A stretch of 64,000 nt of DNA from Candidatus Latescibacterota bacterium (GTDB lineage: Bacteria > Latescibacterota > UBA2968 > GCA-2709665): the NCBI GenBank assembly GCA_965219455.1, contig OZ244744.1:3840001-3904000 (forward strand), given 5' to 3'. The position numbers and the translations under genes were made by a program. Below are positions 20,507 through 51,672 of the stretch, piece by piece. A model generated the notes under the pieces. The model worked only from the letters and a program-made list of their open reading frames with translations. It did not search any database and was not told the origin of the DNA. How positions within the stretch are numbered: position 1 is the stretch's first letter; every line of letters begins with the position of its first letter.

Positions 20507-20511
20507 CGTAT

Positions 20512-21435
20512 ATGAATGCTAAAGAACAAAGAGACACCACCCGGGTTCCTCGAATCACTGGGCTGCTTGTCATTGAAGTCCGCAAATCCAACCCCAACGG
20601 CGACCCTGAACGCGAAAGTTCGCCGCGCCAGCGCCCAGACGCCAAAGGCGAGATCTCGCCGGTGTCCATCAAACGCAAGCTCCGTGATCTGGTCTTGGAA
20701 AAAGAGGGCGTGGTCTGGCAGGAGCTCAAGGGCAAACTGGAAATTCAGAGTGACCAGCAGTTCCAGATTCTCGAGTATCGCGGGAGAAACCGCGACGAAA
20801 TCAGAAAACTCATGGAAACTCCGAAGGGCCAACTCTCCCAAGCGTTCAAAGATGCCTACTGGGACGGACGCCTGTTTGGGAATACGTTCCTCGAAGAAGG
20901 CGGTGGGGATACGATCCGTGCCGGGGTGGCACATTTCGGCGTCGGCGTTTCTGTGGCACCGATAGAAATCGAGTTTTCAACGTGGACGAACATGGCTGGT
21001 GTTCAAGAGGGCAAAGATCGCGGCATGGCCCCAATGGGATTTCGCGTCCTAAAACATGGCGTTTATGCTGCACCTTTTTTCGTCAATCCCAGTTTGGCCC
21101 ACAAGACGGGATGTACGAAACTCGACATTGACCTGATGCTTGAGCTTCTACCACTGGCATACGCGCATACCCGCTCGGTTGTTCGAACAATGGTCGAGGT
21201 AGTTCACGCTCACGTTTTCACCCATAATAAGCCGCTCGGTTCGCTGTCGGATTTCGCTCTACTGGATGCGCTCACGCCCCGCAAGACATCGGACCTGGAC
21301 AAGCCGTCAAACTCACTGGGCGAGTACGAGATTCCGACTTGGGATGAGATCAAAGAGAAACCTATTCGGGCCGGAGCCAAGAAAACATTTTCGGATTGCG
21401 GAACTTACCGCGACTACACACTTGATAGCGAGTAA
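20512..21435 (+). CDS. cas7: Cas7 (type I-C/Csd2-like)
   Basis: SNPNGDP...PRQ, ISPVSIKRKLRD, YWDGRLFG. Confidence 0.9.
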   Translation: MNAKEQRDTTRVPRITGLLVIEVRKSNPNGDPERESSPRQRPDAKGEISPVSIKRKLRDLVLEKEGVVWQELKGKLEIQSDQQFQILEYRGRNRDEIRKLMETPKGQLSQAFKDAYWDGRLFGNTFLEEGGGDTIRAGVAHFGVGVSVAPIEIEFSTWTNMAGVQEGKDRGMAPMGFRVLKHGVYAAPFFVNPSLAHKTGCTKLDIDLMLELLPLAYAHTRSVVRTMVEVVHAHVFTHNKPLGSLSDFALLDALTPRKTSDLDKPSNSLGEYEIPTWDEIKEKPIRAGAKKTFSDCGTYRDYTLDSE

Positions 21436-21437
21436 AC

Positions 21438-23738
21438 ATGTCGCTTGCCAACCTGTCACCTCTGGCCCACAGCGCCCGAAGGGGCTCGCCAGAGCAGAGC
21501 TACCATGACCATGTGACCAATGTGCGCCGCTTCGCAACCAAGTTTGCTCGCGAAGCGGCGGCATATTCGGAAGGCTGTCGGGAACTCTTTCAAGCTGTGG
21601 TGGAGTTAGTAGCCACTTATCACGACCTTGGTAAGTTGGACGAGATCTTCCAAGACATTCTGCACCGCAACCGCCCCAATAACGAAGGCTTCAATCACGT
21701 CGAAGCAGGCACGGCGTATCTCAAGAAGCTAAAGCAGGGCGAGGCGGCGCTGTGCTGTTTTGCCCACCACATTGGCCTGCCGTCCCTGCCGAAAGAGAAA
21801 GCGAGGGGTGACGGACGGCTGTTTTTGCGTGACGAAAAAGAGTTAAACGTCATCGGGGTTCGGTCTTGGGAACGGACAGACGAACTGCTCGATGGCTATC
21901 TCGCCCAACACCACTCCCTTTTTGATCCGCAGTCAGCCGGTGTTTCTGTCAAGTTCACCGGCTTAGTCCGCCGCCTGGCTTTATCGTGTCTGGTGGATGG
22001 AGACCATAGTGATACCGCGCAGCACTACCAAGAAGAACGTGAACTGGACGGCCTTCCACTTAAGGCCGCTGATCGTTTGCAGGCCTTGGACCGCTACGTA
22101 GAAAACCTCAAGAGTGATCAGACCAACAAGTCCCAAAGAGAAAAGGATCGGCTTCGTTTGCGTCAGAGCATTTATAAGGCGTGCCGTAACAGGACACTTG
22201 AATCCACTGAACGATTTGTCGCCTGTGATAGTCCGGTAGGTACCGGCAAGACCACCGCCGTAATGGCTCATCTGCTGCGCGTCGCTTCCGAACGCGGTCT
22301 GCGCCGAGTGTTCGTAGTTCTTCCATTCACCAATATCATTGATCAGTCCGTTGAAACTTATCGTAGAGCATTGGTGCTGCCTGGTGAAGATCCTGAAGCG
22401 GTGGTCGCCGCTCACCATCACCGTGTTGAGTTTAGTGGTGAGAAATGGAGAGATTTGCGGCAACTGGCTCAGCGCTGGGAAGCACCTGTCGTAGTGACTA
22501 CAGCAGTGCAGTTTTTCGAGACGCTGGCCTCTAATCGGACGATCGGACTCCGAAAACTCCATCAAGTGCCGGGCTCAGCCATCTTCGTAGACGAAGCACA
22601 CGCGGCCATGCCGGCACCGCTGTGGCCTCAGCACTGGCGCTGGTTGAAGGAACTTTGCGATGACTGGAATTCCCACCTCGTTTTCGCCAGTGGTTCACTG
22701 TCGCGTTTCTGGGCATTGGAGGACTTCGTTCCAGTTGAGCAACAGAGTCCCGTTCCTGAACTCCTTACTGGGAAATTGAATGAGCAAGCCCACGCCTTCG
22801 AAGCCAGACGGATTTATCTCAAGAGCCGGGATGATCTGTTGGGTCTGACAGCATTGGCGGATTTTATCGTTGAAAAACCGGGACCTCGATTGGTAATCCT
22901 GAACACCGTGCAATCCGCCGCTATCCTAGCCAAACACCTATGGGATCAATTCTATCCCGGTTGTGGCTGGGCAGGCGAGACGGACTCAAGAGTAGAGCAC
23001 ATCTCAACGGCAATTTGTCCCGCACATCGTGCAGTGATTATCTCCCGAATTAAACAGCGTCTCCGAAACAGATGGGATAACGACTGGACTTTAGTCGCCA
23101 CCAGTTGCGTTGAGGCAGGAGTAGATTTCTCGTTTCGCACCGCCTTTCGTGAACGCTGCAGCTTGACGAGCCTTCTCCAAATAGCCGGACGGGTCAGTCG
23201 CAGTGGCGAATATTCTAAAGCTGAGGTGTGGGATTTTCGACATGACGAATCTGGTTTTCTGAATTTGCATCCCAACTACAAAAGTTCGCGTAGGGTATTT
23301 GCTGACCTATTCGAAGAGTACGGTGAGGATCTTGGCCCTCAGCACTGCACCGAAGCCTTACGTCGAGAAGTCAATTCAGGTTTTGGGAAAACAGAGAACA
23401 TGGCTCGGCAAATCGTTGCCGCTGAGAAAAGTGAAGATTATCCCCAAGTTGCCCAAGACTGCCGGATTATCACAGCGGACACGTGCACGGTGCTTGTCAG
23501 TCAGGAATTGATTAATCGGTTTCAAACAAGAGATCCTAAACAATTTCCGTCGCCCCGCGAAGTCATGAATTATAGTGTGCAGGTGTGGCAAAATAAACTG
23601 AACGAACTACCAGTCACCCAACTACTGGATTTTGAATTAGTTGGCATCCAACCCAACTGCTACAACGGCTTCCTGGGTTACATGCGAGGATTGCTTCCCC
23701 TGTTAAAAGCGCAGCATGATGGAGGAATCGTCTTGTGA
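21438..23738 (+). CDS. cas3: Cas3 HD nuclease-helicase
   Basis: AHS..YHDH, HDLGK, PVGTGKT, DEAH, EAGVD, QIAGRVSR. Confidence 0.92.
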   Translation: MSLANLSPLAHSARRGSPEQSYHDHVTNVRRFATKFAREAAAYSEGCRELFQAVVELVATYHDLGKLDEIFQDILHRNRPNNEGFNHVEAGTAYLKKLKQGEAALCCFAHHIGLPSLPKEKARGDGRLFLRDEKELNVIGVRSWERTDELLDGYLAQHHSLFDPQSAGVSVKFTGLVRRLALSCLVDGDHSDTAQHYQEERELDGLPLKAADRLQALDRYVENLKSDQTNKSQREKDRLRLRQSIYKACRNRTLESTERFVACDSPVGTGKTTAVMAHLLRVASERGLRRVFVVLPFTNIIDQSVETYRRALVLPGEDPEAVVAAHHHRVEFSGEKWRDLRQLAQRWEAPVVVTTAVQFFETLASNRTIGLRKLHQVPGSAIFVDEAHAAMPAPLWPQHWRWLKELCDDWNSHLVFASGSLSRFWALEDFVPVEQQSPVPELLTGKLNEQAHAFEARRIYLKSRDDLLGLTALADFIVEKPGPRLVILNTVQSAAILAKHLWDQFYPGCGWAGETDSRVEHISTAICPAHRAVIISRIKQRLRNRWDNDWTLVATSCVEAGVDFSFRTAFRERCSLTSLLQIAGRVSRSGEYSKAEVWDFRHDESGFLNLHPNYKSSRRVFADLFEEYGEDLGPQHCTEALRREVNSGFGKTENMARQIVAAEKSEDYPQVAQDCRIITADTCTVLVSQELINRFQTRDPKQFPSPREVMNYSVQVWQNKLNELPVTQLLDFELVGIQPNCYNGFLGYMRGLLPLLKAQHDGGIVL

Positions 23739-24388
23739 CACCAGATCAAAACTGCAAGGCTCAAACTGTGAGTCCTCCCGACCCCATCCCTCTCTCACTC
23801 CTCAACGACTTCCTATATTGCCAGCGCCGGGCGGCACTGAAGGCGATTGAGGGGTGGCGCGGGACCAACGAGCATACCGTGGTCGGCGACAGCGTCCACC
23901 AGCGGGCTGACGATTCCAGTTACGAGACCGTCAAGGGCGTGACACTATTGCGCGCCCTACCCGTCTGGTCGGATCGTCTCGGGCTCAGTGGCAGATGCGA
24001 CATTGTCGAGCGGCATCCCGATGGTTCGTTAGTTCCAATAGAATATAAAAAGGGCAAACGTCGCAAATTTGATAACGACGACGCGCAGCTGTGCGCGCAA
24101 GCCTTGTGCTTGGAAGAGATGTTTGGGCTCGAGGTCCCACGAGGGGCTATCTTCCACGCCCGGAGCAAGCGCCGGAGGGAGGTTGAATTCACAGGGGACC
24201 TGCGTCGGCTCACGGTAGAGGCAATTCAGGCGGTACACCGGCTGATCGAGGAAAATGAAGTCCCACGGGCCGTCTATAAACCTCAATGTACAGAGTGCTC
24301 GCTGTTTGACTATTGTCTACCTGAAATTACCAGCGTTCCGCCCACTCTCGCGCAGGCGGCTCGGGAGGTGTTTGACACAACAGGCTAA
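23735..24388 (+). CDS. cas4: Cas4 exonuclease
   Basis: YCQRR, PIEYKKG, QLCAQALCLEE, CxxCS..YC. Confidence 0.92.
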   Translation: MTPDQNCKAQTVSPPDPIPLSLLNDFLYCQRRAALKAIEGWRGTNEHTVVGDSVHQRADDSSYETVKGVTLLRALPVWSDRLGLSGRCDIVERHPDGSLVPIEYKKGKRRKFDNDDAQLCAQALCLEEMFGLEVPRGAIFHARSKRRREVEFTGDLRRLTVEAIQAVHRLIEENEVPRAVYKPQCTECSLFDYCLPEITSVPPTLAQAAREVFDTTG

Positions 24389-24430
24389 ATTCGCCCGGCT
24401 GTTGCGGGCCGAGGGGCTCAGTCGCAAATC

Positions 24431-25492
24431 ATGGCCATTATTCAGAACACCCTTTATCTGACGACCTCTGGCACCGTAGTACACAGGGATCATCTGACGC
24501 TTCGGGTCGAGATCGAAAAACAAACCCGATTGACTGTGCCGATTCACCACCTGGAGAGTATCTGTGCATTCGGGAGGGTCGTCGTTACGCCTTCCGCAAT
24601 GGCCTTATGCTGGCGACACCAGGTGGCGGTTCATTTTCATACCGAAAACGGGTACCTGTTGGCGCAGGTACTGGGCAGCGGAGACACCCGCTATCTGTTG
24701 CGTCGAGCACAGTACGCGGCGGCGGACAATCCGGAGGAAGCATCCCGGATTGCCCGCCAGTTCGTTGCTGGGAAATTGCAGAACTCGCGCACCAATTTGC
24801 AGCGGTCCGGCCGCGAGGCCGATACGGATTCGGATCGCGCGGAATTGGCCAGAGCGGCGAGTGAGCTGGCGCGGCTGATCCAGCAACTGGGAAATGCCGA
24901 ACCTTTGCCCCAAGATTCTGGGCTTCGGGAAGCGATTGACCCCATCAGAGGAATGGAGGGTCTCGGCGCCAGGGTATATTTCTCAGCGTTCCAGTATATG
25001 CTGAAACAGCAGCGGGACGACTTCAGGTTCTTGAATCGCTCTCGCCGTCCTCCTCGTGACCGCGTGAACTGCCTGCTGTCCTTCATTTACGCACTGGTGC
25101 GCCACGACTGTTTGGCGGCGTTAACGACCGCCGGATTGGATCCATTCGTCGGATGGCTCCACGCCACGCGGGCTGGAAGACCGGCGTGCGCATTGGATCT
25201 GATGGAAGAATTCCGGCCCTGTTTGGCTGAGCGTCTGGCGTTGACCCTGATCAATCGGCGACAGATTGAGCCAGGGCACTTTCGCGAACGAGAAGGCGGC
25301 GCCGTGGAATTTACCGACCGTGGCAGGAAGGAAGTGATTCAGGCCTGGCAGCGGCGCAAGCAGGCCGAGATAAAGCATGCCCTGTTTAAGGAAAATGTCC
25401 GTCTGGGACAGGTGTTCAGCATTCAAGCCCGGTTGCTCGCGAGGTACCTTCGCGGCGATATTCCCGACTATATTCCGTATATACCAAAGTAA
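24431..25492 (+). CDS. cas1: Cas1 (type I-C)
   Basis: QNTLYLTT, RSRRPPRDRVNCLLSF, ALDLMEEFRP. Confidence 0.95.
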   Translation: MAIIQNTLYLTTSGTVVHRDHLTLRVEIEKQTRLTVPIHHLESICAFGRVVVTPSAMALCWRHQVAVHFHTENGYLLAQVLGSGDTRYLLRRAQYAAADNPEEASRIARQFVAGKLQNSRTNLQRSGREADTDSDRAELARAASELARLIQQLGNAEPLPQDSGLREAIDPIRGMEGLGARVYFSAFQYMLKQQRDDFRFLNRSRRPPRDRVNCLLSFIYALVRHDCLAALTTAGLDPFVGWLHATRAGRPACALDLMEEFRPCLAERLALTLINRRQIEPGHFREREGGAVEFTDRGRKEVIQAWQRRKQAEIKHALFKENVRLGQVFSIQARLLARYLRGDIPDYIPYIPK

Positions 25493-25530
25493 CGCAGTGT
25501 GTCCACTTTTTGTTGTTTGAGGAGAGCGGA

Positions 25531-25818
25531 TTGAAACTGATCGCGTACGACGTTTCGACAATTGACCGGGCGGGACAAAAACGACTACGCCGCGTGGCGA
25601 GGGCCTGCAAGGATTTTGGAGTTCGTGTACAAAAATCGCTGTTTGAATGCCAGGTTGGTAAAACGGAATGGGCGGTACTTCGAGATCGTCTACTGACGGA
25701 AATCGACCATGAGTACGACTCCCTTCGAATCTATCACCTCGATGAAGACACCGGAAAGGAGACCGAGCATCACGGAATCAGCGAACCAGTGGACCTGTCC
25801 GGTCCGCTTGTCCTGTAG
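25531..25818 (+). CDS. cas2: Cas2
   Basis: (M)KLIAYDVST, RVQKSLFEC, DSLRIY; TTG start after GGAG. Confidence 0.9.
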   Translation: MKLIAYDVSTIDRAGQKRLRRVARACKDFGVRVQKSLFECQVGKTEWAVLRDRLLTEIDHEYDSLRIYHLDEDTGKETEHHGISEPVDLSGPLVL

Positions 25819-25998: not shown

Positions 25999-26912
25999 AT
26001 CTCCCCTCACTCCGGTGGGGGGAGCGGATTGAAACTAAAATCCCACGTGCTGACAGTTGATAGCCCGCCGTATCTCCCCTCACTCCGGTGGGGGGAGCGG
26101 ATTGAAACGTTCGCCCGGACGCCGTCCCGGAAAAGGGGTGGCGCAATCTCCCCTCACTCCGGTGGGGGGAGCGGATTGAAACGCCTTCAAGTCCACGGGC
26201 GTTTCATTTACCGCCTGGCCGATCTCCCCTCACTCCGGTGGGGGGAGCGGATTGAAACCTCGAAGATGGCGAACTTCGCGTGATTATTCAGCGATCTCCC
26301 CTCACTCCGGTGGGGGGAGCGGATTGAAACATCCGACGTATGGGCCAGGCATTTCGCCGGAACTCGATCTCCCCTCACTCCGGTGGGGGGAGCGGATTGA
26401 AACATCAGGAATTGGCTGATCCCGTCTATGTCGGCTCTGGATCTCCCCTCACTCCGGTGGGGGGAGCGGATTGAAACCCGGAGCGTAAGGCTGTCAGACC
26501 TTCAAATGCCGATCTCCCCTCACTCCGGTGGGGGGAGCGGATTGAAACGGCGCTGCGATCGAGATTCAGAAAACGGTCAAGAATCTCCCCTCACTCCGGT
26601 GGGGGGAGCGGATTGAAACAGACAAAGAGCGACGCAGAAGGCCGAAAATCCCTGCATCTCCCCTCACTCCGGTGGGGGGAGCGGATTGAAACACTTTCGC
26701 TTTTCCGCAGGCTGACTGCACCACGTGCATCTCCCCTCACTCCGGTGGGGGGAGCGGATTGAAACTGACTTACAATGCCGCAAACCGTGATTATTCTTCG
26801 ATCTCCCCTCACTCCGGTGGGGGGAGCGGATTGAAACGTGGAAGACCGATTATGCCGAGATGGCCAAGAAGACAGATCTCCCCTCACTCCGGTGGGGGGA
26901 GCGGATTGAAAC
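25999..26912 (+). CRISPR. CRISPR array, 13 identical 37-bp repeats (family A) ATCTCCCCTCACTCCGGTGGGGGGAGCGGATTGAAAC, 12 spacers of 34-39 bp
   Basis: Repeats start at 25999, 26072, 26146, 26222, 26294, 26367, 26441, 26512, 26583, 26656, 26729, 26801, 26876. Confidence 0.98.
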
Positions 26913-27121
26913 CGGGCGGTAGCCACGTCCCATCAAGTTTGAGGTCGCTCTCCGTGAGGGAGCGTGAATTGAAACTCGCACCTCTCGCGCAGTTCGAGAA
27001 AGTCGCCAACGACCCCGCGGAATACTCCCATCAGAACAAGGATTGAAACCGTAGCGCGGTCTCGCTGCCTGTCATGCTGCCGAGCCCGGTGAGAATCTTC
27101 CATCGGAACAAGGATTGAAAC
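26913..27121 (+). CRISPR. Array extension with foreign repeats: one 32-bp family B repeat (26944-26975) and two 37-bp family C repeats (27013-27049, 27085-27121)
   Basis: B=GTCGCTCTCCGTGAGGGAGCGTGAATTGAAAC; C=CCCGGTGAGAATCTTCCATCGGAACAAGGATTGAAAC; spacers 31, 37, 35 bp. Confidence 0.85.
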
Positions 27122-27178
27122 TCCACCACTCCGCGTCCCGCGCGGCCACACCCACCCCAGCCCAGGAGCCCGAACCCG

Positions 27179-28660
27179 ATGGGCGCGATGGAACGCCTCA
27201 CAGCAGACATCCAGGCGCTGCCGCTCGACATCGGGCGGATCATCGTCGGCGGGGTCCTGTTTGTCTACTTCCTCAACACGCTCAGGCAGGCGCCCGACTT
27301 CAGCGATCCCGACGGCTTGATCGACCACTGCCTGGTGTGCCGGCTCTTCCCTCCCACCCGCGTGAGCCTCTTTCAGCCGGGGATGCCGGGGGTGCTGTTC
27401 CGCGGCGTCTTCGTCTGCGCGTGCGGGGCGGCGCTCATGGTGGTCGCGGGCTTCCATCCGCGCGCAGCCGGAGCGTTCCTCTTCCTGTCGGCGTTGTCCG
27501 CCCTGCGCTGGAACGTGCTGGCCAGCTACCTCGACGACGCCATGATCCACATCTTCTGCCTGTGGATCGTGCTGCTGCCGGTGGGGAGTACGCTGAACGT
27601 GCCGGATCTGATCGCGGGGGGTTGGGGAAGCGCAACCACCGACACCTGGATCTCAGCGACCGTCCCCGGGGCCGCCCCCCGCGCCTTCATCGCCAACATG
27701 GCGCTCATCTATATCGTCGCCGGACTATACAAGTTCACAAGCCCGATGTGGCGCGACGGCTCCGCGATGCACTCCGCGCTCCGCATGCCAATCGCGCACG
27801 CGCCAGACTTCTGGACGTTGCGGTGGCGCACCCCGCTCCGTCTGGTAACCTGGGCCGCGCTGATCCTGGAGCCCCTCTTAGCGCTCATCTTCGTGCTGCC
27901 GCCAGGCTCGGCGCTCAAGTGGCTGCTGGTCGCGGGGGCCATCGTCTTCCACCTCGGGATCGCGTTTACGCTCAAGATCCCGTACTCCAACTCGGCGATG
28001 CTCGCCGCAATCCCGCTCGCCCTCGCGCCCGAGATCATGCAGGGCTGGCTGGGGCCGCCGCCGCTGGAGGGGGCTGTCGTGACGGCCGGCAATGCCGCCG
28101 CCGCTAACGACGGCCCCGGCCCCGCCGGCTGGATCGCCCTCACCCTCGTTGCGCTGATCGTGATCCAGGTCGTCTGGGAGGCCGTCAACACCGGTCGCCG
28201 GCTCCGCCCCCGCTATTCGTCGAGCGGCTGGGACAACCCGGTCCGCGCCCTCCTCTGGATGGCCGGCATCTTCCAGAGCTACCGCCTCTTCGACTGGGTC
28301 GACGAACGCAACCATCACGTGCGCTTCGAGGTCACGCGGGTGGGGCCGGGCACCCCCCTCAATCCCGACGCCATCTTCCCCCAGACCATGCGTCACCTCC
28401 TTCTCCAGTCGTACCTTGTCGGCAACATCTGGATGCGGATGAGCCCCGACCAACTCGAGCAGGTCCGCCGCTCGATCCTCATCCGGCACGCCCGCCGCTA
28501 CGCCCGCACGCACCCTGACGCGGGCACGATCGAAGCGGTCGCGATCGTGCAGCGGGTCACCGACGAGAACCTCGAGCTCACCCGCGGGGAGCGGCGGCCC
28601 ATGATGCGCTTCACCTGCCGGGGGGGCAGCGCCGTCATGCATCATCCACGAGAGGAATAG
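27179..28660 (+). CDS. HTTM-domain membrane protein
   Basis: Multiple TM helices, LIYIVAGLYKFTSPMWRDGSA, FHLGIA; visibly higher GC than the cas operon. Confidence 0.7.
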   Translation: MGAMERLTADIQALPLDIGRIIVGGVLFVYFLNTLRQAPDFSDPDGLIDHCLVCRLFPPTRVSLFQPGMPGVLFRGVFVCACGAALMVVAGFHPRAAGAFLFLSALSALRWNVLASYLDDAMIHIFCLWIVLLPVGSTLNVPDLIAGGWGSATTDTWISATVPGAAPRAFIANMALIYIVAGLYKFTSPMWRDGSAMHSALRMPIAHAPDFWTLRWRTPLRLVTWAALILEPLLALIFVLPPGSALKWLLVAGAIVFHLGIAFTLKIPYSNSAMLAAIPLALAPEIMQGWLGPPPLEGAVVTAGNAAAANDGPGPAGWIALTLVALIVIQVVWEAVNTGRRLRPRYSSSGWDNPVRALLWMAGIFQSYRLFDWVDERNHHVRFEVTRVGPGTPLNPDAIFPQTMRHLLLQSYLVGNIWMRMSPDQLEQVRRSILIRHARRYARTHPDAGTIEAVAIVQRVTDENLELTRGERRPMMRFTCRGGSAVMHHPREE

Positions 28661-28669
28661 GGGGCGGCC

Positions 28670-30568
28670 ATGTGCGGCATTGCAGCGATCCTGTCCCGCA
28701 ACGGGCCCGTCGACGCGGGAGCCCTCCGCCGCGCCACCGGGGCCTTGCGGCATCGTGGGCCGGACGCGGAGCGTACCTGGGTTTCTCCGAGCGGCAGGAT
28801 CGGGCTGGGTCACCGGCTCCTCGTGATCAACGACCCCGAGGGCCACCAGCCGATCGCGAGCGAGGACGGGCGGCTGCACATCGTCGTCAACGGCCAGTTC
28901 TACGACTTCGCGCGCATCCGTACGTCACTCGAAGCCCGGGGGCACCGTTTCCGCACCCGCTCCGACAGCGAGATCGCGCTGCACCTCTACGAGGACCACG
29001 GCGCAGCGTGCCTGGAGCACCTGCGCGGCCAGTTTGCCTTCGTGGTCTGGGACGAGGAGACCGGCAACCTCTTCGCGGCGCGCGACCGCTTCGGCCTCAA
29101 GCCGCTCTTCTACACCGAACACGACGGTGCGCTCTACCTCGCGTCCGAGGCGAAGGCACTCTTCGCGGCGGGGGTGCCCCGCGCGTGGGACACCCAGGGC
29201 GTGTATCACTGGCTGCTCGCCTGCCCGGATGAGCGGCGGTCGCTCTTCGACGGGATCCGGCAGGTGCCGCCCGGGCACTTGATGAGGGCCAGTAACGGAT
29301 CAGTGCGGCTGCAGGGCTACTGGGACCTGCCGGCGTCGCCGCCGGGGGGGCGAGATGCCCCCGACTTCCCCCGCGCCGTCGAGCACGCCCGCGAACTCAC
29401 CGAGGAGGCGATCCGGCTGCGCATGGTAGCCGGGGTCCCCGTCGGCTGCCTGATCAGCGGCGGCCTCGATTCCTCTTCCGTCCTGGCCGTGGCGGCCACC
29501 TGCACGGACCGCCCGGTCGCCGCCTTCACGGTCGGGTTCGAGCGGCGCGAATTCGACGAGAGCCCGGGGGCACGGGAAGCGGCCGCCGCCGCCAACGCCG
29601 ACCACACCGTCGTCACGCTCAGCGACGCCGACCTGGCCGATCACTTCGCCGACGCCGTGTGGCACGCCGAGACGCTTCAGTTCAACACCCACGGCGCGGC
29701 GCGCTACCTGCTGAGCCGGGGCGTGCGCGACGCAGGCTACCGCTCGGTCCTCGCAGGCGAGGGCGCCGACGAGGCCTTCTTCGGCTACGAGTTCCTGCTC
29801 GCGGCGGCTGGTGCATCCCGCGGCGGATTCGGTCCGCGCAAGCTGCTGCGCATCCTGTCGGGATTCCTGCGCTCCCCCCGGCGCCACCACCCTACCCTGG
29901 CCGCCGTCTCCCCCTGGCTCGCCCGCCTCGCCCTCCTCCTCCCGGCGGCCCCCTCGCTCTTTACGCGGCTCTCGGGTGGACTCGGCCTCATCCAGTCGGT
30001 CTGCTCACGCGACTTCCTGCACCGCTTCGACGGCTACGACCCCTACCGCACCTATTACCTCCGCTGCAAGGAGGCCGCCGCCATCTCCCGGCGCGAACCG
30101 GCCCGGCAGCTCCTCTACCTCTGGCTGCACTCGATCTTCGCCAACTACCACATGGCCGCCGACCGGCTCGACATGGCGCACGGCGTCGAAGTCCGCCTCC
30201 CCTTCCTCGACCACCACCTCTTCGAGCACCTGAACCGCCTCCCGCTCGCCCTCCTCACCGACCATCCCCGCGAAAAGCACCTCCTGCGCGAGGCCATGCG
30301 CCCCCACATCCCGGACTCGGTGTACGGGGCGGTGAAGCGACCGTTCATGGCGCCATCGGCGGTTGGGGTGGACGGGCCGCTGCACGATTTTCTGCAGGAC
30401 ACGTTGCGGGGGGAGGGGCTGCGGGCCGTGCCGTTCGTGGATGCGGCGGCGGTGGGGGGCGTGCTGGACGGGCTGCCGCAGGTGGGTGAGCGGGAGCGCG
30501 GGTCGGTGGATTCGCTGCTGTTGATGCTGGCTTCAGTGGCGGTGTTGCAGGAGCGGTGGGGGTTGTAA
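28670..30568 (+). CDS. asnB: Asparagine synthase (glutamine-hydrolysing) family amidotransferase
   Basis: MCGI, HRGPD, RDRFGLKPL, SGGLDSS, GEGADE, EVRLPFLD. Confidence 0.9.
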   Translation: MCGIAAILSRNGPVDAGALRRATGALRHRGPDAERTWVSPSGRIGLGHRLLVINDPEGHQPIASEDGRLHIVVNGQFYDFARIRTSLEARGHRFRTRSDSEIALHLYEDHGAACLEHLRGQFAFVVWDEETGNLFAARDRFGLKPLFYTEHDGALYLASEAKALFAAGVPRAWDTQGVYHWLLACPDERRSLFDGIRQVPPGHLMRASNGSVRLQGYWDLPASPPGGRDAPDFPRAVEHARELTEEAIRLRMVAGVPVGCLISGGLDSSSVLAVAATCTDRPVAAFTVGFERREFDESPGAREAAAAANADHTVVTLSDADLADHFADAVWHAETLQFNTHGAARYLLSRGVRDAGYRSVLAGEGADEAFFGYEFLLAAAGASRGGFGPRKLLRILSGFLRSPRRHHPTLAAVSPWLARLALLLPAAPSLFTRLSGGLGLIQSVCSRDFLHRFDGYDPYRTYYLRCKEAAAISRREPARQLLYLWLHSIFANYHMAADRLDMAHGVEVRLPFLDHHLFEHLNRLPLALLTDHPREKHLLREAMRPHIPDSVYGAVKRPFMAPSAVGVDGPLHDFLQDTLRGEGLRAVPFVDAAAVGGVLDGLPQVGERERGSVDSLLLMLASVAVLQERWGL

Positions 30569-30683
30569 GGGATCGCTTGGTGGGCCAAAATGTAAGACAG
30601 ACCTTACAGAATGTCGTGTTTGTTGTACATGTCGCTTGCGTCCGACGCTGGACGACTTAACATAAGCAGCTTATGTTATTGAC

Positions 30684-30875
30684 ATGGACAACACAATCCG
30701 AAGTTATCTCGCCGAAATCGGTCGGAGAGGCGGCAGGAAGAGTCGTCGCACTCTGGACCCGGAGACCGCCAGGGCCATGGTCCGCGTCCGCGAGGCCCGG
30801 CGGGCGTATCGCAAGTACAACGCCACATGTTTCTGGTCCTACCGCAAGGATCTGAGTATCGGCCTGACCGATGTG
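30684..30875 (+). pseudogene. Small basic protein truncated by a family C repeat
   Basis: MDNTIRSYLAEIGRRGGRKSRR...CFWSY runs into the repeat-encoded PGENLPSE. Confidence 0.5.
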
Positions 30876-30899
30876 CCTGGTGAGAATCTTCCATCAGAA
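30876..30899 (+). repeat. 5' 24 bp of a family C repeat, interrupted by an IS end
   Basis: CCTGGTGAGAATCTTCCATCAGAA followed directly by TGTCAA. Confidence 0.8.
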
Positions 30900-31703
30900 T
30901 GTCAATGATCGCCCATATGCGGCCAATGCGGGATCGGCCTAATCAGGCCACCTGGGATGCGATTGAGGTTTCGGACTTTCCGTCAACGATTCTACCTTCT
31001 GAGTGTCTCCCCGACATTCAGGAGGGAAGAACATGGCAAACCGGAGGTTCGAGATGTATGAGTATCGCCAGGTATTGGCGCGTATGCGGTTGGGCGAGTC
31101 GGATCGTGCGATCGCCCGTTCAGGGTTGATAGGACGCCAGAAGGGCAGCGCTTGTCTGTGCGCCTGCGCGCAACGCGCGGGCAGGCGCACAGGCAGGCGC
31201 TTCGTGAGGTGGCCGGCCGTGAGGGATGGCTGGAGGCTTCCAGCGTGATGCCCGATGATGCGGCGCTCGCGCAGGTTCTACAGCACCCTTCCTCGCGTCC
31301 TCAGTCGGCGGCGTCGGTTTTGCTCTACCAGGACAAGGTCACGGCCTGGTGGCGTCAGTGTATCCGAGGTACGGTCATCCACCAGGCGTTGGTGGACACC
31401 TGCGGCTATGCCAGCTCGTATTCTTCCATCCGGCGTTTTCTCCAGGGGCTCAAAGGCGCTCATCCCGATGTCACCACCGAGTTGGACTTCGATCCCGGCG
31501 ACGTGGCGCAGGTGGACTTTGGGCGTGGTCCAACCATAAAGGACGTCTTAACACACCAGTCCATCGCGACGTGGATCTTCGTGATGGTGCTGGCCTGGTC
31601 TCGCCACCAGTATGCCGAGATCGTACCGGATCAAAAGGTCGAGACGTGGCTTTGCTGCCATCGAAGCGCCTTCGAGTTCTTCGGCGAGCGCCGGCATTCT
31701 TGA
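30900..31703 (+). mobile_element. istA: IS21-family remnant (left end TGTCAA... plus frameshifted, truncated istA)
   Basis: MANRRFEMYEYRQVLARMRLGESDRAIAR at 31033; PGDVAQVDFG, FVMVLAWSRHQY, AFEFFG; no istB. Confidence 0.85.
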
Positions 31704-31943
31704 TTGGCAAACGACCGGTGCTGTTCGCACCTGAATCCGGGGACACTTTACGCCGAGTCAATTCGACGCGGCGACTCGTAGTAATCTGGGTTCCCGGCCT
31801 GGCCAACGCGCTGCTTCCGACCGACACCAACTGCACAAAGAGCGAGACAATACCCGACACGCGTACGCCGGAAACCGGCACCTGAGGCTCCGAAAGATAG
31901 CCTTGTCTATTCCAGAGAGCCTCGACCGAAGTGGAGGAATTCA

Positions 31944-33275
31944 ATGATAGCAGCCGACCAGGAGACTGGTCCGACGCCAGTTGAACGAAGCGTGTCTATC
32001 GGCACCTGGAACATGGATCACTGGAAGCGGACCTCGCAGCAGCGCCAGGACGCATGGCGTTACCTTCAAACGGAGAACAAGGCTGACGTTATGCTGCTCC
32101 AGGAAAGCGTTGCTCCGTCTGACATCCCCCGCAACCGATTCGTACACCGCGAGATCGCTGGCCGGCGGCCCTGGGGCTCGTCGGTTGTGGCGTTCGCCGA
32201 TGACCTGGAAACAGAGGAGATCGATGCCGTGGGTACACGCTACGGCCCAACGAGGTTCAGTATGCTGGGAAGCCTTCCGGGTTCCGTGATTGTTGCTCGA
32301 ATCCACGTGCCTGAAGTGGGCCCAATCACCTGTGTGAGTGTGTATGGCGCGATGGATGACGGCTATGCGCAAACAAGGATGTTTCGTGTTATCGCCGACC
32401 TGATTCCGCTGTTTGACTCGGATGACGGCAGGCGCGTCATTCTGGGAGGCGACTTCAACGTTACAACTGCGGCAGGTCCGGATACGCTCGAACTGCCTCG
32501 ATACCGCGCCCTGTTCGTTGCCATTGAATCACTCGGGCTCGTCAATCTCGTTACGACGGCAAAGGATCGTCCAGACCCCATGCCGGGTTGTCCATGCGGC
32601 ACCGTCGACTGCCGCCACGTGCGAACGTTCGGCGACAATCCGGGCACACAGCTGGATTGGCTGTATGCCACGAAGGAACTCGCGCATCGGTGCACGCGGC
32701 TGCGAGTCGATCACAACGTCATGGGCACCCGGAGTGACCACGCGCCTCTCATTGCCGAGTTTAAAGTCCCCCCACTCAAGGGCGGCATGGTTGTCGATCC
32801 GGACTCATTTGTGCAGGAGTTGGGGGTCCGTGCCGGCTGCAAGTGTACTCGAATTGCCGAAGAACTGATTGCGTGGGCGCACCGGAAACACGTCGAACTC
32901 GAAGGATCGGGCCGCAGGGTCGCGTATTTCAATCGAATGCCGACGCGCAATACCGATCCGCCGGAGATCTGGTTCCAACTCGACAGATTGCCATTGGCAG
33001 ACGGTAAGGGATTGTTGCAGTGGACCTTCAGTATCAAGGCTGACGGCCGCGTGGTCGTCCAATTCCAATACATGGCCCCCGCATTCGATACAATGAATGC
33101 TCGCGAAGAACTATGGTCTGATTTGTGCCGGATTGAAGGCGTGACCTTGGACAAGCGTCTGAACGGGCGACCGAGCTTTCCGTTGCAAAACCTCGCGCAA
33201 TCCGAACGCCGCGAGCAGTTTCAACGGGTGTTTTCCAACATGATCGACAAGACGCTGCGCGATAAAGCGGATTGA
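31944..33275 (+). CDS. Endonuclease/exonuclease/phosphatase (EEP) protein with extra C-terminal domain
   Basis: TWNM, LLQE, GGDFN, QLDWL, SDHAP; stop codon lies inside a repeat 3' end (AGCGGATTGAAAC). Confidence 0.85.
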   Translation: MIAADQETGPTPVERSVSIGTWNMDHWKRTSQQRQDAWRYLQTENKADVMLLQESVAPSDIPRNRFVHREIAGRRPWGSSVVAFADDLETEEIDAVGTRYGPTRFSMLGSLPGSVIVARIHVPEVGPITCVSVYGAMDDGYAQTRMFRVIADLIPLFDSDDGRRVILGGDFNVTTAAGPDTLELPRYRALFVAIESLGLVNLVTTAKDRPDPMPGCPCGTVDCRHVRTFGDNPGTQLDWLYATKELAHRCTRLRVDHNVMGTRSDHAPLIAEFKVPPLKGGMVVDPDSFVQELGVRAGCKCTRIAEELIAWAHRKHVELEGSGRRVAYFNRMPTRNTDPPEIWFQLDRLPLADGKGLLQWTFSIKADGRVVVQFQYMAPAFDTMNAREELWSDLCRIEGVTLDKRLNGRPSFPLQNLAQSERREQFQRVFSNMIDKTLRDKAD

Positions 33276-33351
33276 AACTGCGTCTACGAGGGTTTGAATC
33301 TGACCTACAGCCCTTCCCGTGAGAATCTTCCATCAGAACAAGATTTGAAAC
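33266..33351 (+). CRISPR. Orphan repeat-spacer-repeat unit (family A 3' end, 36-bp spacer, family C repeat 33315-33351)
   Basis: AGCGGATTGAAAC 33266-33278; spacer 33279-33314; TCCCGTGAGAATCTTCCATCAGAACAAGATTTGAAAC. Confidence 0.75.
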
Positions 33352-33434
33352 GGCGCCGGCGGCAAAGCAGAGGTCGACGACGCCGTAAGCCTGCTGGCCG
33401 GGCGCCGCCCCGTCCACGAGAGGAGAGAGCGAGC

Positions 33435-34517
33435 ATGGCGCACCTGTTTGGACGCGACTACACGAAGGCGGAGCTGCTGCGGTTGGTCGGCGATATGAGC
33501 CAGCTCGCCGCCGTTCGCCGCGCGGAGCTGACCGAGGGCAACGAGCGCGGCGCCGGATTGATCGAGGTGAGCAACGCCTCCGGACTGAGCTTCTCGGTGC
33601 TGCCCGGACGGGCGCTGGACATCGCCGCCGCCACCTACCAGGGGCGGTCGCTGTGTTTCCGCAGCGCCACCGGCGACGTCGGACCGGCATTCTTCGAGCC
33701 CGCCGGTTACGGCTGGATGCGCAGTTTCTTCGGCGGCCTGCTGATCAGTTGCGGCCTGACCTTCGTCGGCCATCCCGAGACCGACACGGAGGAGGAAGGC
33801 GAGGAACTGGGCCTGCACGGGCGGCTGTCCGCCATCCCGGCGCGCGAGGTGAGCGCCGGCGGAAGCTGGCAGGGAGACCAATACCGCCTGCGCATCGCCG
33901 GCACCATGCGCGAAGCGGTGGCACTTGGCACCACCCTCGAGCTACGCCGCGAAATCACAACGACGCTGGGCGAGCGCCGCATCAGCATCCACGACCGCGT
34001 GGAGAACCTCGGCGGGTTGCGCTCGCCGTTGATGCTGCTGTACCACACCAATCCCGGCTTCCCGCTGCTCGACGAGGGTACCCGGTTCCTGGTCAACAGC
34101 CAGCTCAGCACCGAGTGGCTGCACGATCGCCCGGTCGATGCCGCGGAGTACGAGCGGGCGCGCGCCCCGGAGCCGGGCGCCGGCGACGACGTATACGTGC
34201 ACCGGCCGGTACCGGACGCCAACGGCAACGTGACCGTTGCGTTGATCAACGACCGGCTTGCGTACGGCCTGCAGTGGCGCATGCCGGCTGCCGAGCTACC
34301 GCTGGTCACCCAGTGGCAGCACTTCGCCGCCGCCGGCTATGTGACCGGCGTGGAGCCGGGCAACTGCTCGCCCCTCGGGCGCGCCTGGAACCGCAGGCAC
34401 GACTCCCTGGAGTACCTGGAACCCGGCGCCACACGCGAGTTCCACCTGGAGATCACCGTGCTCGACGGCGCCGCCGACGTCGCCGCCGCAGAGCGCCGCG
34501 TCGCCAACCTGGCTTGA
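33435..34517 (+). CDS. DUF4432 / aldose 1-epimerase-like protein, copy 1
   Basis: LPGRALDI, GLHGRLS, LLYHTNPGFPLL, GVEPGN; near-identical to 47166-48248. Confidence 0.8.
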   Translation: MAHLFGRDYTKAELLRLVGDMSQLAAVRRAELTEGNERGAGLIEVSNASGLSFSVLPGRALDIAAATYQGRSLCFRSATGDVGPAFFEPAGYGWMRSFFGGLLISCGLTFVGHPETDTEEEGEELGLHGRLSAIPAREVSAGGSWQGDQYRLRIAGTMREAVALGTTLELRREITTTLGERRISIHDRVENLGGLRSPLMLLYHTNPGFPLLDEGTRFLVNSQLSTEWLHDRPVDAAEYERARAPEPGAGDDVYVHRPVPDANGNVTVALINDRLAYGLQWRMPAAELPLVTQWQHFAAAGYVTGVEPGNCSPLGRAWNRRHDSLEYLEPGATREFHLEITVLDGAADVAAAERRVANLA

Positions 34518-34598
34518 CCGCGGATAGTGCGTCCCCGCGCCTTAACCGTACACGAGACGCACCCCACAGAACAGCAGTGCCTCGCGTGCGCTCCACAC

Positions 34599-34864
34599 AC
34601 CGTCGGGAATCTTCCATCAGAACAAGGATTGAAACAGCTTATCATAGATCCAGAGTTGGAGTATGGGTCAGGTCGCCCCCCGTGCGGGAGCGGATTGAAA
34701 CAATATCACCGATGCAGAAAAGAACCAGGCGATCCATCTCCCCTCACTTCGGTGGGGGGAGCGGATTGAAACGTTGTTCGTCAAGCGTCCGACGCTGATT
34801 TCGTATTACATCTCCCCTCACTTCGGTGGCCTGCATGCTGCAAGCGGGGGAAGCGGATTGAAAC
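34599..34864 (+). CRISPR. Distal mosaic mini-array C-B-A-A* (34599-34635, 34672-34701, 34736-34772, 34810-34864)
   Basis: Four repeats ending ATTGAAAC with 36, 34 and 37 bp spacers; last repeat carries an 18-bp insertion. Confidence 0.9.
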
Positions 34865-40520: not shown

Positions 40521-40522
40521 GA

Positions 40523-47049: not shown

Positions 47050-47086
47050 CCCGTTGAAAACCTTCCATCAGAACGTGGATTGAAAC
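47050..47086 (+). repeat. Solo family C repeat (with B-like 3' end)
   Basis: CCCGTTGAAAACCTTCCATCAGAACGTGGATTGAAAC. Confidence 0.8.
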
Positions 47087-47165
47087 GGCGCCGGCGGCGA
47101 AGCAGAGGTCGACTACACTGTACGACCGCTGACGGGGCGCCGCCCCGTCCACGAGAGGAGAGAGC

Positions 47166-51106: not shown

Positions 51107-51109
51107 GCG

Positions 51110-51661: not shown

Positions 51662-51672
51662 GAGCGCCGCGG

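What the first reader, a model, noticed from the sequence alone, without database searches (positions are those of the whole stretch)
25999..34864. Three CRISPR repeat families nested symmetrically: A13-B-C-C-[7.5 kb cargo]-C-B-A-A
Seen: the array passes from family A (37 bp) to a canonical I-C-like 32-mer (B, 26944) to family C (27013, 27085), with normal 31-37 bp spacers. After the cargo it returns in mirror order: C (34599), B/A hybrid (34672), A (34736), A with insertion (34810). The families share essentially only the 3' (GG)ATTGAAAC. Hybrid repeats exist: 34672 is B 5' + A 3', and 47050 is C 5' + B 3'. Inference: successive nested insertion of foreign array segments into one array by crossover at the common 3' handle, i.e. 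spacer and gene exchange between different CRISPR subtypes.
Basis: partly seen in the sequence, partly recalled or inferred. Interest (0 to 1): 0.85.

Follow-up and report, generated by a model that had tools for sequence, protein, structure and literature searches.

The report
Foreign genes sitting in CRISPR spacer positions
A bacterial CRISPR array mixes repeats of three CRISPR types, and where a short spacer should lie it holds a 3.75-kb piece of another phylum's chromosome with two intact genes, so arrays may sometimes take up whole genes.

Summary
A type I-C-variant cas operon (17689-25818) is followed by 13 identical A repeats, then B, C, C, about 7.5 kb, then C, B', A', A''. The cargo is not one unit: it also holds a truncated C repeat (30876-30900), an A-type 3' remnant (33266-33278) and a full C repeat (33316-33351).

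A, B and C are all genuine CRISPR repeats in congeners at the same WYL-flanked locus. A goes with I-C-variant, B with canonical I-C, C with type I-B. The unit C-DUF4432-C-A is shared with G011, and B'-like repeats recur in G014. So the mirror order looks incidental, not a nested insertion.

The main new result concerns 27122-30875 (3,754 bp, 69% GC). It matches Longimicrobiales/Gemmatimonadota chromosomes at 80-94% identity. The homology starts at the first base after one C repeat and stops at the last base before the next. The donor-like loci carry no repeat there. Contigs of 4 of 4 public runs bridge the left junction.

How it got in is inferred: integrase-type insertion or spacer-guided recombination.

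The parts
14625..15593 (+). WYL/HTH regulator, the conserved left flank of the locus in congeners
   Evidence: Pfam WYL, WCX and HTH_11. 84-92% aa identity in G003, G010, G011, G007 and G014.
17689..25818 (+). Type I-C-variant cas operon: cas5 17689-18318, cas8c-like 18290-20506, cas7 20512-21435, cas3 21438-23738, cas4 23735-24388, cas1 24431-25492, cas2 25510-25818
   Evidence: Pfam; Csd1 is below its cut-off. The only Cas1 in the genome. No RAMP or Cas6 families found.
25999..26912 (+). Array of 13 identical A repeats (37 nt; 10-bp hairpin plus 11-nt tail) with 12 spacers of 34-39 nt
   Evidence: Fold -20.1 kcal/mol, z -3.4. Weak Rfam CRISPR-DR9 match below the gathering score.
26944..26975 (+). 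Single B repeat (canonical I-C type, 32 nt), orphan
   Evidence: only copy in the genome. B arrays in G014, G035 and G039.
27013..27121 (+). C1 (27013-27049), a 35-nt spacer, and C2 (27085-27121). C is a type I-B repeat family and is orphan here.
   Evidence: C arrays of about 74-bp period in congeners, next to cas6b-cas8b-cas7-cas5-cas3-cas1-cas2-cas4 in G003.
27122..30875 (+). 3,754-bp foreign chromosomal fragment in the exact place of a spacer: 493-aa protein (27179-28660), asparagine-synthase-like gene (28670-30568) and the start of a third gene
   Evidence: GC 0.689 against 0.587 for the window. Not present in 52 other genomes of the order. 80-94% nt identity to Longimicrobiales/Gemmatimonadota MAG loci, with homology ending exactly at both repeat borders. 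Left junction bridged in 4 of 4 runs.
30876..30900 (+). C3, a C repeat cut after about 25 nt
30901..31699 (+). IS-like remnant (terminal sequence plus a fragment of an rve-type transposase) that interrupts C3
   Evidence: The end sequence is shared with 3 other genomic places. Weak rve hit for 31152-31703.
31700..33278 (+). Unit carrying an endonuclease/exonuclease/phosphatase-family gene (31944-33275). Its last 13 nt (33266-33278) equal the 3' end of an A or B' repeat.
   Evidence: Pfam. 88.7% nt identity to G011, where the gene follows an A-like repeat.
33316..33351 (+). C4 repeat (36 nt)
33352..34598 (+). DUF4432 (aldose-1-epimerase-family) cassette. It begins with the 3' end of another gene right after the repeat. 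GC 0.700.
   Evidence: Pfam. Duplicate at 47087-48270. Orthologous cassettes in G003, G007, G011 and G013 at 94-98% aa; next best 64-69%.
34599..34635 (+). C5 repeat, shared with G011 and G013 at the same place
34672..34701 (+). B' repeat (30 nt): B-like 5' part and a 16-nt A-type 3' end
   Evidence: A similar repeat is present in G014.
34736..34864 (+). A' (34736-34772) and A'' (34810-34864, with an internal insertion). Both are the T variant that is the array-wide form in G010 and G013 and the trailer form in G011.
47050..48270 (+). C-like repeat with a B-like 3' end (47050-47086) followed by the second DUF4432 cassette copy
   Evidence: The repeat is only 30 of 37 columns identical to C4, while the cassettes are 96% identical.
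50482..51709 (+). Three further C copies (50482-50518, 50807-50843, 51673-51709). They bound a small-protein gene (from 50630) and a unit made of a peptidase-S58 gene fragment plus a 183-aa gene.

Best explanation
The locus is a working type I-C-variant CRISPR-cas system with a young A array. The trailer of that array is a palimpsest of orphan repeats from three type I repeat families: A (I-C variant), B and B' (canonical I-C-like) and C (I-B). In this genus these systems replace one another at the same WYL-flanked chromosomal site, while a downstream zone of old repeats persists.

Gene-sized DNA has been placed into that relic array exactly where spacers belong. The clearest case is a 3,754-bp arbitrary piece of a Gemmatimonadota (Longimicrobiales-like) chromosome lying precisely between two C repeats. 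Older units look like earlier events of the same kind: the DUF4432 cassette and, in relatives, the small-protein cassettes.

Later events shuffled the units: an IS insertion into C3, a duplication of the DUF4432 cassette, and deletions or recombination between repeats. The mirror order A-B-C...C-B'-A is a by-product of that history.

Shown: the anatomy, the orphan status of B and C, the shared ancestry of parts of the mosaic, and the base-exact borders of the foreign fragment.

Inferred: the route of entry. I favour insertion by a spacer integrase (Cas1-Cas2 type, acting at the two borders of one repeat). The close alternative is double recombination between two neighbouring spacers and their matching sites on incoming DNA.
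For: 1. Anatomy.

2. One cas system only. There is a single Cas1, a single Cas7 hit, no RAMP family and none of three Cas6 families.

3. C is a type I-B repeat. Large C arrays stand in 23 of 41 relatives searched, G000 included. In G003 they lie beside cas6b-cas8b-cas7-cas5-cas3-cas1-cas2-cas4 and the same WYL gene.

4. A and B arrays in relatives. B arrays with a canonical I-C operon and the same WYL gene are in G014. A arrays are in G010, G011 and G013.

5. Shared mosaic.
- G011 has A20, small ORF, C, DUF4432 (5' part), a 76-repeat C-type array, small ORF, C, DUF4432, C5, a 36-nt unit, an A-like repeat, then the EEP gene.
- G013 has A37, DUF4432, C5.
- G014 has a B'-like repeat.
- G010:C12 has B-like, A and C relics interleaved.

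6. The T variant of A' and A'' equals the array-wide form in G010 and G013 and the two trailer repeats of G011. A' and A'' are therefore old.

7. The foreign fragment.
- GC is 0.689.
- 7 of the 52 other genomes of the order show only 30-272-nt weak matches; none holds the fragment.
- 46 of 47 related loci found in genome contigs are Longimicrobiales or Gemmatimonadota records, with up to 90% aa identity.
- Among the 40 alignment rows printed, nucleotide homology starts at 27122 in 6 loci and ends at 30875 in 9 loci. No alignment runs more than 5 nt past either border.
- The donor-like loci stay similar to one another beyond both ends, and the right end cuts inside a donor gene.
- No C repeat occurs in any of the 47 loci.

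8. Reads. The left junction is bridged by contigs in 4 of 4 runs from 3 studies.

9. Contrast. Interruptions of the C arrays in G003 may be insertion elements: short inverted matches lie 20-58 nt inside the insert ends, and the larger insert holds a stretch 70.7% identical to the window's rve region.
Against: - The right junction (30875|30876) is bridged by none of the contig pieces listed. They stop at 30849-30852 and resume at 30904 or 31092. It rests on the single-contig assembly.
- No pre-insertion allele was found. The flanking spacers are unique to G000 among 22 family genomes, and no contig joined C2 to C3.
- G000 has no type I-B adaptation genes. An integrase route needs either the I-C-variant Cas1-Cas2 acting on a foreign, internal repeat, or an event in another host followed by import.
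- C2 and C3 differ at 2 of their first 24 nt, so a fresh repeat duplication is not evident.
- The 3 nt upstream of the left end in donor-like loci are TTG in 5 of 6 and TTT in 1 of 6. This is not the TTC that I recall as the usual I-C motif.
- None of 368 spacers from these genomes matched the Gemmatimonadota loci beyond 15-20 nt.
- Only this one unit has a demonstrable donor. The nearest DUF4432 relatives outside the array-linked copies are 64-69% identical.
- Other cassettes are flanked by unlike repeats, for example A on the left and C on the right in G011 and G013. That shows recombination between repeats is also at work.
Confidence: 0.6

Rival explanations
1. Foreign array segments, with their cargo, were inserted one inside the other by crossover between unlike repeats at the shared 3' end. 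A B-flanked segment went into an A array, and a C-flanked segment went into the B segment.
For: - Repeats with mixed ends exist. B' has a 16-nt A-type 3' end, and the copy at 47050 has a B-like 13-nt 3' end.
- Cassettes in relatives are flanked by unlike repeats: A on the left and C on the right.
- One run holds a contig that lacks the C1-C2 spacer, so repeats do recombine.
- A review passage reports the published proposal that elements carrying solitary repeats integrate into arrays by homologous recombination (PMC8616872, passages seen).
Against: - The shared suffix is only 8-10 nt.
- No reciprocal A/B hybrid stands at the left junction.
- B'-like repeats recur in G014.
- The inner part, C-DUF4432-C-A, is shared with G011 and so predates the G000-specific parts.
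- The tri-family mix occurs in another order in G010:C12.
- The donor-like loci of the largest unit carry no repeats.
Confidence: 0.2
2. The exact borders arose by recombination guided by spacers, not by an integrase. Two neighbouring old spacers matched sites 3.7 kb apart on incoming Gemmatimonadota DNA. A double crossover then replaced spacer-repeat-spacer with the whole intervening stretch.
For: - It gives base-exact borders without needing cognate Cas1-Cas2.
- It does not need C2 and C3 to be identical, and they differ at 2 of 24 nt.
- Recombination between spacers and their targets is reported (Varble 2019 and Watson 2018, as cited in the review passage seen; I did not read those papers).
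Against: - No spacer of 368 from these genomes matches the Gemmatimonadota loci beyond chance.
- It needs two spacers against a bacterial chromosome, in the right order and orientation.
- Homology of about 35 nt is at the lower limit for recombination (recalled).
Confidence: 0.2
3. The repeats next to genes are kept for a function at the RNA level. Cas5c or Cas6b would cut read-through transcripts at the repeats, or Cas proteins loading there would control translation of the cassette genes. This would be a guard circuit of the CreTA or crlRNA kind.
For: - In relatives a family of 55-71-aa proteins sits between repeats. The ATG lies 2-13 nt after a repeat in most copies, and the stop lies at or inside the next repeat.
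- All cassette ORFs run in the same direction as the repeats.
- A conserved spacer-like unit between two relic repeats recurs in G003, G007, G010 and G014.
- CRISPR-repeat-like units that regulate neighbouring toxin or defence genes are described (10.1101/2024.01.05.574328 and 10.1101/2024.12.27.630466; passages seen).
Against: - The orphan-array spacers of G000 have no partial match nearby above chance.
- G000 lacks the conserved spacer-like unit.
- Solitary repeats next to orthologous cassettes are as decayed as neutral sequence. The copy at 51673-51709 is one example.
- There are no RNA data.
Confidence: 0.15
4. Assembly or binning artefact: the Gemmatimonadota stretch was joined into this genome by mistake.
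For: - The genome's contamination estimate is 8.49.
- The right junction is not bridged by the listed contigs.
Against: - Contigs of 4 of 4 runs from 3 studies cross the left junction, 3 of them with no differences.
- A chimeric join would not fall to the base on both repeat borders and then return to the same locus.
- The fragment is 6-20% diverged from every sampled Gemmatimonadota locus.
Confidence: 0.03

Closest known systems
Degenerate trailer repeats, orphan arrays and arrays interrupted by insertion sequences
   Same: B, C, B', A' and A'' lie at the trailer side and are decayed. C has no cognate cas genes in this genome. C3 is cut by an IS-like end.
   Different: Three unrelated repeat families lie in one array. 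The 3.75-kb insert has no transposase, no inverted ends and no leftover spacer halves. It occupies exactly the spacer position.
Solitary repeat units of viruses and plasmids, including RNA anti-CRISPRs (Racrs; PMC10651486, abstract seen in the listing), and the proposal that such elements enter arrays by recombination (review PMC8616872, passage)
   Same: Single CRISPR-like repeats stand next to non-CRISPR genes. Unlike repeats appear to have recombined.
   Different: The locus is chromosomal and conserved across species. An exact 22-nt C-repeat core is absent from the viral contig collection, and the small protein has no viral relatives there. The donor of the large fragment has no repeat.
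CreTA/CrePA and crlRNA modules (10.1101/2024.01.05.574328 and 10.1101/2024.12.27.630466; passages seen)
   Same: Repeat-like sequences stand beside small protein genes and defence genes next to a type I cas operon. In relatives a spacer-like unit is conserved between two relic repeats.
   Different: Here the genes themselves lie between the repeats. No partial match of a spacer-like unit to a nearby promoter was found in G000.
Casposons and integron gene cassettes (recalled, not searched)
   Same: Kilobase DNA is inserted with direct repeats on both sides. Cassettes are co-oriented, promoter-poor and shuffled between genomes.
   Different: No casposase or IntI gene, no inverted ends and no attC-type sites. 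The flanking repeats are CRISPR repeats. Pfam of the window found no recombinase other than the rve fragment.

Membership tests
Type I-C CRISPR-Cas (cas operon plus A array) | Cas5 of the Cas5d/c kind, Cas7 (Csd2), Cas3, Cas4, Cas1 and Cas2 present | tested here: met
   All pass the Pfam cut-offs.
Type I-C CRISPR-Cas (cas operon plus A array) | Large subunit Cas8c (Csd1) | tested here: inconclusive
   PF09709 scores 23.6 bits, below the cut-off of 27, over residues 245-728.
Type I-C CRISPR-Cas (cas operon plus A array) | No Cas6; repeat forms a hairpin followed by an 11-nt tail ending ATTGAAAC | tested here: met
   No hit to PF10040, PF17262 or PF01881 in the genome. A folds into a 10-bp stem with an 11-nt tail.
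Type I-C CRISPR-Cas (cas operon plus A array) | Canonical gene order cas3-cas5-cas8c-cas7-cas4-cas1-cas2 and a 32-nt repeat (recalled) | tested here: not met
   The order here is cas5-cas8c-cas7-cas3-cas4-cas1-cas2 and the repeat is 37 nt. I therefore file it as a variant.
Type I-B repeat family (C) | 37-nt weakly structured repeat in regular arrays next to cas6b-cas8b-cas7-cas5-cas3 | tested here: met
   Met in G003. C folds no better than shuffles.
Type I-B repeat family (C) | Cognate cas genes in this genome | tested here: not met
   No Cas6b, one Cas1 and one Cas7. The C copies are orphans.
Ordinary CRISPR spacer (for 27122-30875) | Lies exactly between two full repeats and derives from foreign DNA | tested here: met
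Ordinary CRISPR spacer (for 27122-30875) | Length about 30-40 nt; flanking repeats identical; acquisition motif next to the source site | tested here: not met
   Length is 3,754 bp. C2 and C3 differ at 2 of 24 nt. The upstream trinucleotide is TTG or TTT in donor-like loci.
IS or transposon insertion into an array | Transposase, inverted ends, target duplication, split spacer or repeat | tested here: not met
   Not met for 27122-30875. Partly seen for the IS-like remnant at 30901-31699: it splits the repeat C3, its end recurs at 3 other places, and it has a weak rve hit below the cut-off. Inverted ends and a target duplication were not tested.
CreTA / crlRNA regulatory mini-array | Spacer-like unit partly matching a nearby promoter next to an acquisition motif | tested here: not met
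   Only 13-16-nt matches at chance level for the 7 orphan units.
Racr / viral solitary repeat unit | Encoded on a virus or plasmid and mimicking the host's active repeat | tested here: not met
   Housekeeping genes flank the locus. No viral contig holds the exact 22-nt C-repeat core.
Integron / casposon | IntI or a casposase gene, with attC or inverted ends | tested here: not met
   No such Pfam family in the ORFs scanned.

The most novel reading that the evidence does not exclude
CRISPR arrays of this lineage act as a gene-capture platform. Their spacer-integration machinery, or recombination guided by spacers, can place kilobase pieces of foreign chromosomes between repeats. The result is co-oriented cassettes that are then kept, duplicated and shuffled between species. 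These include a lineage-specific small protein whose start codon sits a few bases behind the repeat, so its expression could be coupled to crRNA processing. In effect this would be an integron-like use of a CRISPR array.
Probability: 0.3. Interest if true: 0.95.

Novelty: new variant of a known kind. Interest (0 to 1): 0.78.

Why it matters
Spacer uptake is thought to be held to about 30-40 bp by a molecular ruler. A 3.75-kb stretch with two intact genes from another phylum, bounded to the base by repeats, would mean one of two things. Either the ruler can fail in nature, in a way that moves genes between phyla, or stored spacers can serve as landing pads for homologous capture of the DNA they match. 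Either reading links CRISPR memory to gene gain rather than only to gene exclusion. Either can also be tested with this system's Cas1-Cas2-Cas4. The locus also documents turnover of three type I systems at one chromosomal site, with the old repeats left as a readable record.

Tried and rejected
- Partial self-matches. I looked for matches of the 7 orphan units and 12 A spacers in the genome. Only chance-level 13-16-nt matches came up, so I did not pursue a crlRNA reading for G000.
- Spacers against donors. I compared 368 spacers from all held arrays with the 47 Gemmatimonadota loci. Only 15-20-nt matches were found.
- Empty site. The B-C1-C2 spacers are unique among 22 family genomes. An exact spacer scan and a repeat-variant scan of metagenome contigs both found 0. 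A search for the cassette-type repeat variant in 53 genomes of the order gave nothing new.
- Viral origin. An exact 22-nt C-repeat core is absent from viral contigs, and the small protein has no relatives there.
- DUF4432 donor. In 7 native loci I looked for the upstream gene fragment seen in the cassette; tblastx found none. A protein search gave no close donor.
- Small protein. It has no Pfam family. Only 39 relatives exist among 5.8 billion proteins. The AlphaFold model has pLDDT 83.6. Foldseek against the PDB found no match at E <= 0.001.
- Rfam. A matches CRISPR-DR9 below the gathering score; B and C match nothing at E <= 0.1.
- Promoter and terminator scan. Counts did not differ from shuffles. 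The T-run after A'' was not called, so I claim no terminator.
- Reads. Parts without cover, and the right junction 30875|30876, which no listed piece bridges, are not evidence either way.
I draw no habitat from them.
- Literature. There were no papers for 'CRISPR array' with 'giant spacer', for 'CRISPR array' with 'unusually long spacer', or for 'hybrid repeat' with 'recombination between' and 'arrays'. A fourth search listed 13 papers; the one I opened did not bear on this. Supplements were not consulted.
- PADLOC found only the PDC-S37/Hhe-like helicase-nuclease.
I sent it again with the field added.

Full report
**What is there.** The window is G000:C1:3840001-3904000 of a 5.84-Mb single-contig genome with 58% GC. 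On the + strand a WYL-type regulator (14625-15593) is followed by cas5, a weak cas8c, cas7, cas3, cas4, cas1 and cas2 (17689-25818; Pfam). It is the only cas set in the genome. There is one Cas1 and one Cas7 hit. No RAMP family was found, and none of three Cas6 families. After a 180-nt leader come 13 identical 37-nt A repeats (25999-26912) with spacers of 34-39 nt. A folds into a 10-bp hairpin with an 11-nt tail (-20.1 kcal/mol, z -3.4). This fits processing of the type I-C kind. The gene order and the repeat length differ from the canonical I-C layout as I recall it, so I call it a variant.

**The observation.**
- B at 26944-26975
- C1 at 27013-27049 and C2 at 27085-27121
- C5 at 34599-34635
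- B' at 34672-34701
- A' at 34736-34772 (one C>T change)
- A'' at 34810-34864 (internal insertion)

The short units between them are 31-37 nt. The families share only 8-10 nt at the 3' end and align poorly otherwise. B' shares 16 nt with A. B and C are therefore not decayed A.

A C repeat is cut after about 25 nt (30876-30900) by an IS-like end, which has three other copies in the genome. A 13-nt A-type remnant ends the EEP-family gene (33266-33278). A full C repeat lies at 33316-33351. More C copies lie at 50482, 50807 and 51673. C-type copies occur only in this window. The DUF4432 unit is duplicated at 47087-48270 with 96% identity, but its left repeats match in only 30 of 37 columns.

**What the three families are.** All three are real CRISPR repeats in relatives.
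- C forms arrays of about 74-bp period in many congeners and in the sister family; 23 of 41 genomes have matches, G000 included. In G003 these arrays lie next to cas6b, cas8b, cas7, cas5, cas3, cas1, cas2 and cas4. The same WYL gene lies upstream (88% aa). C is thus a type I-B repeat, and C folds no better than shuffles.
- B forms arrays in G014, G035 and G039. In G014 the array follows a canonical-order I-C operon, again behind the same WYL gene (87% aa).
- A forms arrays in G010, G011 and G013.
- In G007 the WYL gene is followed directly by DUF4432, with no cas genes.

So one chromosomal site in this genus holds I-B, canonical I-C, the I-C variant, or nothing.

**Why the mirror order is probably incidental.** Downstream of whichever array is present, relatives carry a zone of solitary or sparse repeats interleaved with genes.
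- G011 reads A20, small ORF, C, DUF4432 (5' part), a 76-repeat C-type array, small ORF, C, DUF4432, C5, a 36-nt unit, an A-like repeat, then the EEP gene.
- G013 reads A37, DUF4432, C5.
- G010:C34 reads A31, then four C copies 625-947 bp apart.
- G010:C12 has a B-like relic, A, then C with small ORFs.
- G014 has a B'-like repeat with the A-type 3' end, just before C and a small ORF.

The inner part of the G000 mosaic (C4-DUF4432-C5-unit-A') is therefore inherited. The B' type recurs, and the three families occur together in other orders. A' and A'' carry the T variant. That variant is array-wide in G010 and G013 and marks the two trailer repeats of G011, so A' and A'' are old. The G000-specific parts are B-C1-C2 with their spacers, which are unique among 22 family genomes, the large insert, the IS remnant, and the position of the EEP unit.

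**The main new result.** The stretch 27122-30875 (3,754 bp, GC 0.689) encodes a 493-aa protein without a Pfam family, an asparagine-synthase-like protein, and the start of a third gene.
- It is missing from the 52 other genomes of the order. Seven of them show only 30-272-nt weak matches.
- A scan of one genome per species found 47 related loci. Of these, 46 are Longimicrobiales or Gemmatimonadota MAG records, with up to 90% aa identity.
- At the DNA level the best locus is 91-94% identical.
- Among the 40 alignment rows printed, homology begins at 27122 in 6 loci and ends at 30875 in 9 loci. Position 27122 is the first base after ...GGATTGAAAC of C2. Position 30875 is the last base before the 37-nt C3. 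No alignment goes more than 5 nt further.
- The donor-like loci remain similar to each other beyond both ends. The left end lies 57 nt upstream of a gene and the right end lies inside a gene.
- None of the 47 loci has a C repeat.

The stretch is thus an arbitrary piece of a foreign chromosome sitting exactly in a spacer position.

*Reads.* Contigs from 4 of 4 public runs in 3 studies cross the left junction, three of them without a difference. One of these runs may be the assembly's own source. The right junction is crossed by none of the listed pieces. The junctions EEP/A remnant/C4/DUF4432 are crossed in two runs.

*Contrast.* The two interruptions of the C arrays in G003 may be insertion elements, on weak evidence. 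Inverted matches of only 7-9 nt lie 20-58 nt inside their ends. The larger insert holds a stretch 70.7% identical to the window's rve region.

**How it got there (inferred).** Three routes can give base-exact borders.
1. A spacer integrase (Cas1-Cas2 type) joined the two ends of a long fragment to the two borders of one repeat, which was then duplicated.
2. Two adjacent spacers recombined with their matching sites on incoming DNA.
3. Either event happened in another host, and the block was then imported by recombination between repeats.

Nothing here decides between them.
- C2 and C3 differ at 2 of 24 nt.
- The trinucleotide upstream of the left end is TTG or TTT in donor-like loci.
- No held spacer matches the Gemmatimonadota loci.
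- No empty site was found.
- G000 has no I-B adaptation genes.

I put the integrase route first. It needs no prior pair of spacers against a bacterial chromosome. It also mirrors what casposases do (recalled). The margin is small.

**Other units.** The DUF4432 cassette (GC 0.700) starts with the 3' end of another gene right behind the repeat. Copies of 94-98% identity exist only in 5 genus genomes, G000 included, always array-linked. The next relatives are 64-69% identical. It looks like an older capture from an unsampled donor.

In relatives a 55-71-aa protein family (WHxDGTP...) fills the space between two repeats. The ATG lies 2-13 nt behind a repeat in most copies, and the stop lies at or inside the next repeat. 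In G000 the one copy (from 50630) starts 112 nt behind the repeat and reads through the next repeat into a peptidase fragment. The family has 39 members among 5.8 billion proteins, no Pfam family, no viral relatives and no fold match in the PDB. Its function is unknown. Its tight fit between repeats is the best hint that some cassettes are more than relics.

**Comparison with known things.** Degenerate trailer repeats, orphan arrays and IS-interrupted arrays are ordinary. A tri-family mosaic is unusual but can be explained by turnover of cas modules at one site. The literature I could search describes solitary repeat units on viruses and plasmids. It also describes RNA anti-CRISPRs, a proposal of integration by repeat recombination, and CreTA/crlRNA modules. 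None describes gene-sized foreign DNA bounded exactly by repeats. Three phrase searches found nothing. A fourth listed 13 papers, and the one I opened did not bear on this. These searches cover open-access text only, and no supplements were seen.

**Verdict.** The locus is a new variant of a known kind. It contains one striking, well-documented feature, a 3.75-kb 'spacer' from another phylum, whose mechanism is open.

Noticed in passing
window 50630-51106; L013, L010, L011, L012, L016, L017 (references): A lineage-restricted family of 55-71-aa proteins (WHxDGTP[FY]..DY..AG.PVPT..QL..WA) lies between CRISPR repeats in the place of a spacer in at least 6 genomes. It has no Pfam family and only 39 relatives in the large protein database. 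The AlphaFold model is confident, and it has no PDB match.
   Followed up: partly
window 17689-23738 against G011 (L022): The effector genes differ sharply between G000 and G011: cas5 59%, cas8c 26%, cas7 59% and cas3 45% aa identity. WYL (92%), cas4 (90%), cas1 (96%) and cas2 (94%) are nearly the same. The break lies at the cas3/cas4 border, which suggests a module swap inside the operon.
   Followed up: no
G011:C5 (L016, reverse strand 3945-9545): A homogeneous 76-repeat C-type array stands in a genome with one Cas1, one Cas7 and no Cas6b hit. It starts directly against a truncated DUF4432 copy. It is either an orphan array or one used by the I-C-variant system.
   Followed up: no
L013, L089, L091, L015: A conserved spacer-like unit ending in ...CAGTGGCCGGTG lies between a relic A, B' or C repeat and the C repeat that precedes a small ORF in G010, G014, G007 and G003. 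Conservation of a 'spacer' across species is what regulatory crRNA-like genes show. The unit is absent from G000.
   Followed up: partly
window 41511-46269: A PDC-S37/Hhe-like helicase-nuclease defence candidate (DUF4011, AAA_11/12, MTES_1575, DUF3320) is split into two overlapping ORFs.
   Followed up: no
window 38312-41101: An Nmad3-domain protein, a ParA-like ATPase and a 192-aa protein form a block. The block is conserved next to C repeats in G003 and other relatives.
   Followed up: no
window 46697-47040, 50359-50442, 52904-53437: Fragments of an ABC-transporter ATPase gene are repeated three times. Two of them lie just upstream of C repeats.
   Followed up: no
window 26279-26330 and 26786-26837: Spacers 4 and 11 of the A array share their last 11 nt or so next to the repeat (96% over 52 nt including the repeat).
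   Followed up: no
window 27051-27085: One contig of run X21 lacks the spacer between C1 and C2. The population therefore holds a variant with one unit fewer (table 5).
   Followed up: no
window 13160-13594 and 17051-17483; 12976-13092 and 41237-41355: Non-coding or unannotated stretches are duplicated at 76-78% identity on both sides of the WYL gene and further downstream.
   Followed up: no
window 25519-25537: The start of cas2 contains GAGAGCGGATTGAAAC, a 14-nt match to the 3' end of the A repeat. It may be chance.
   Followed up: no
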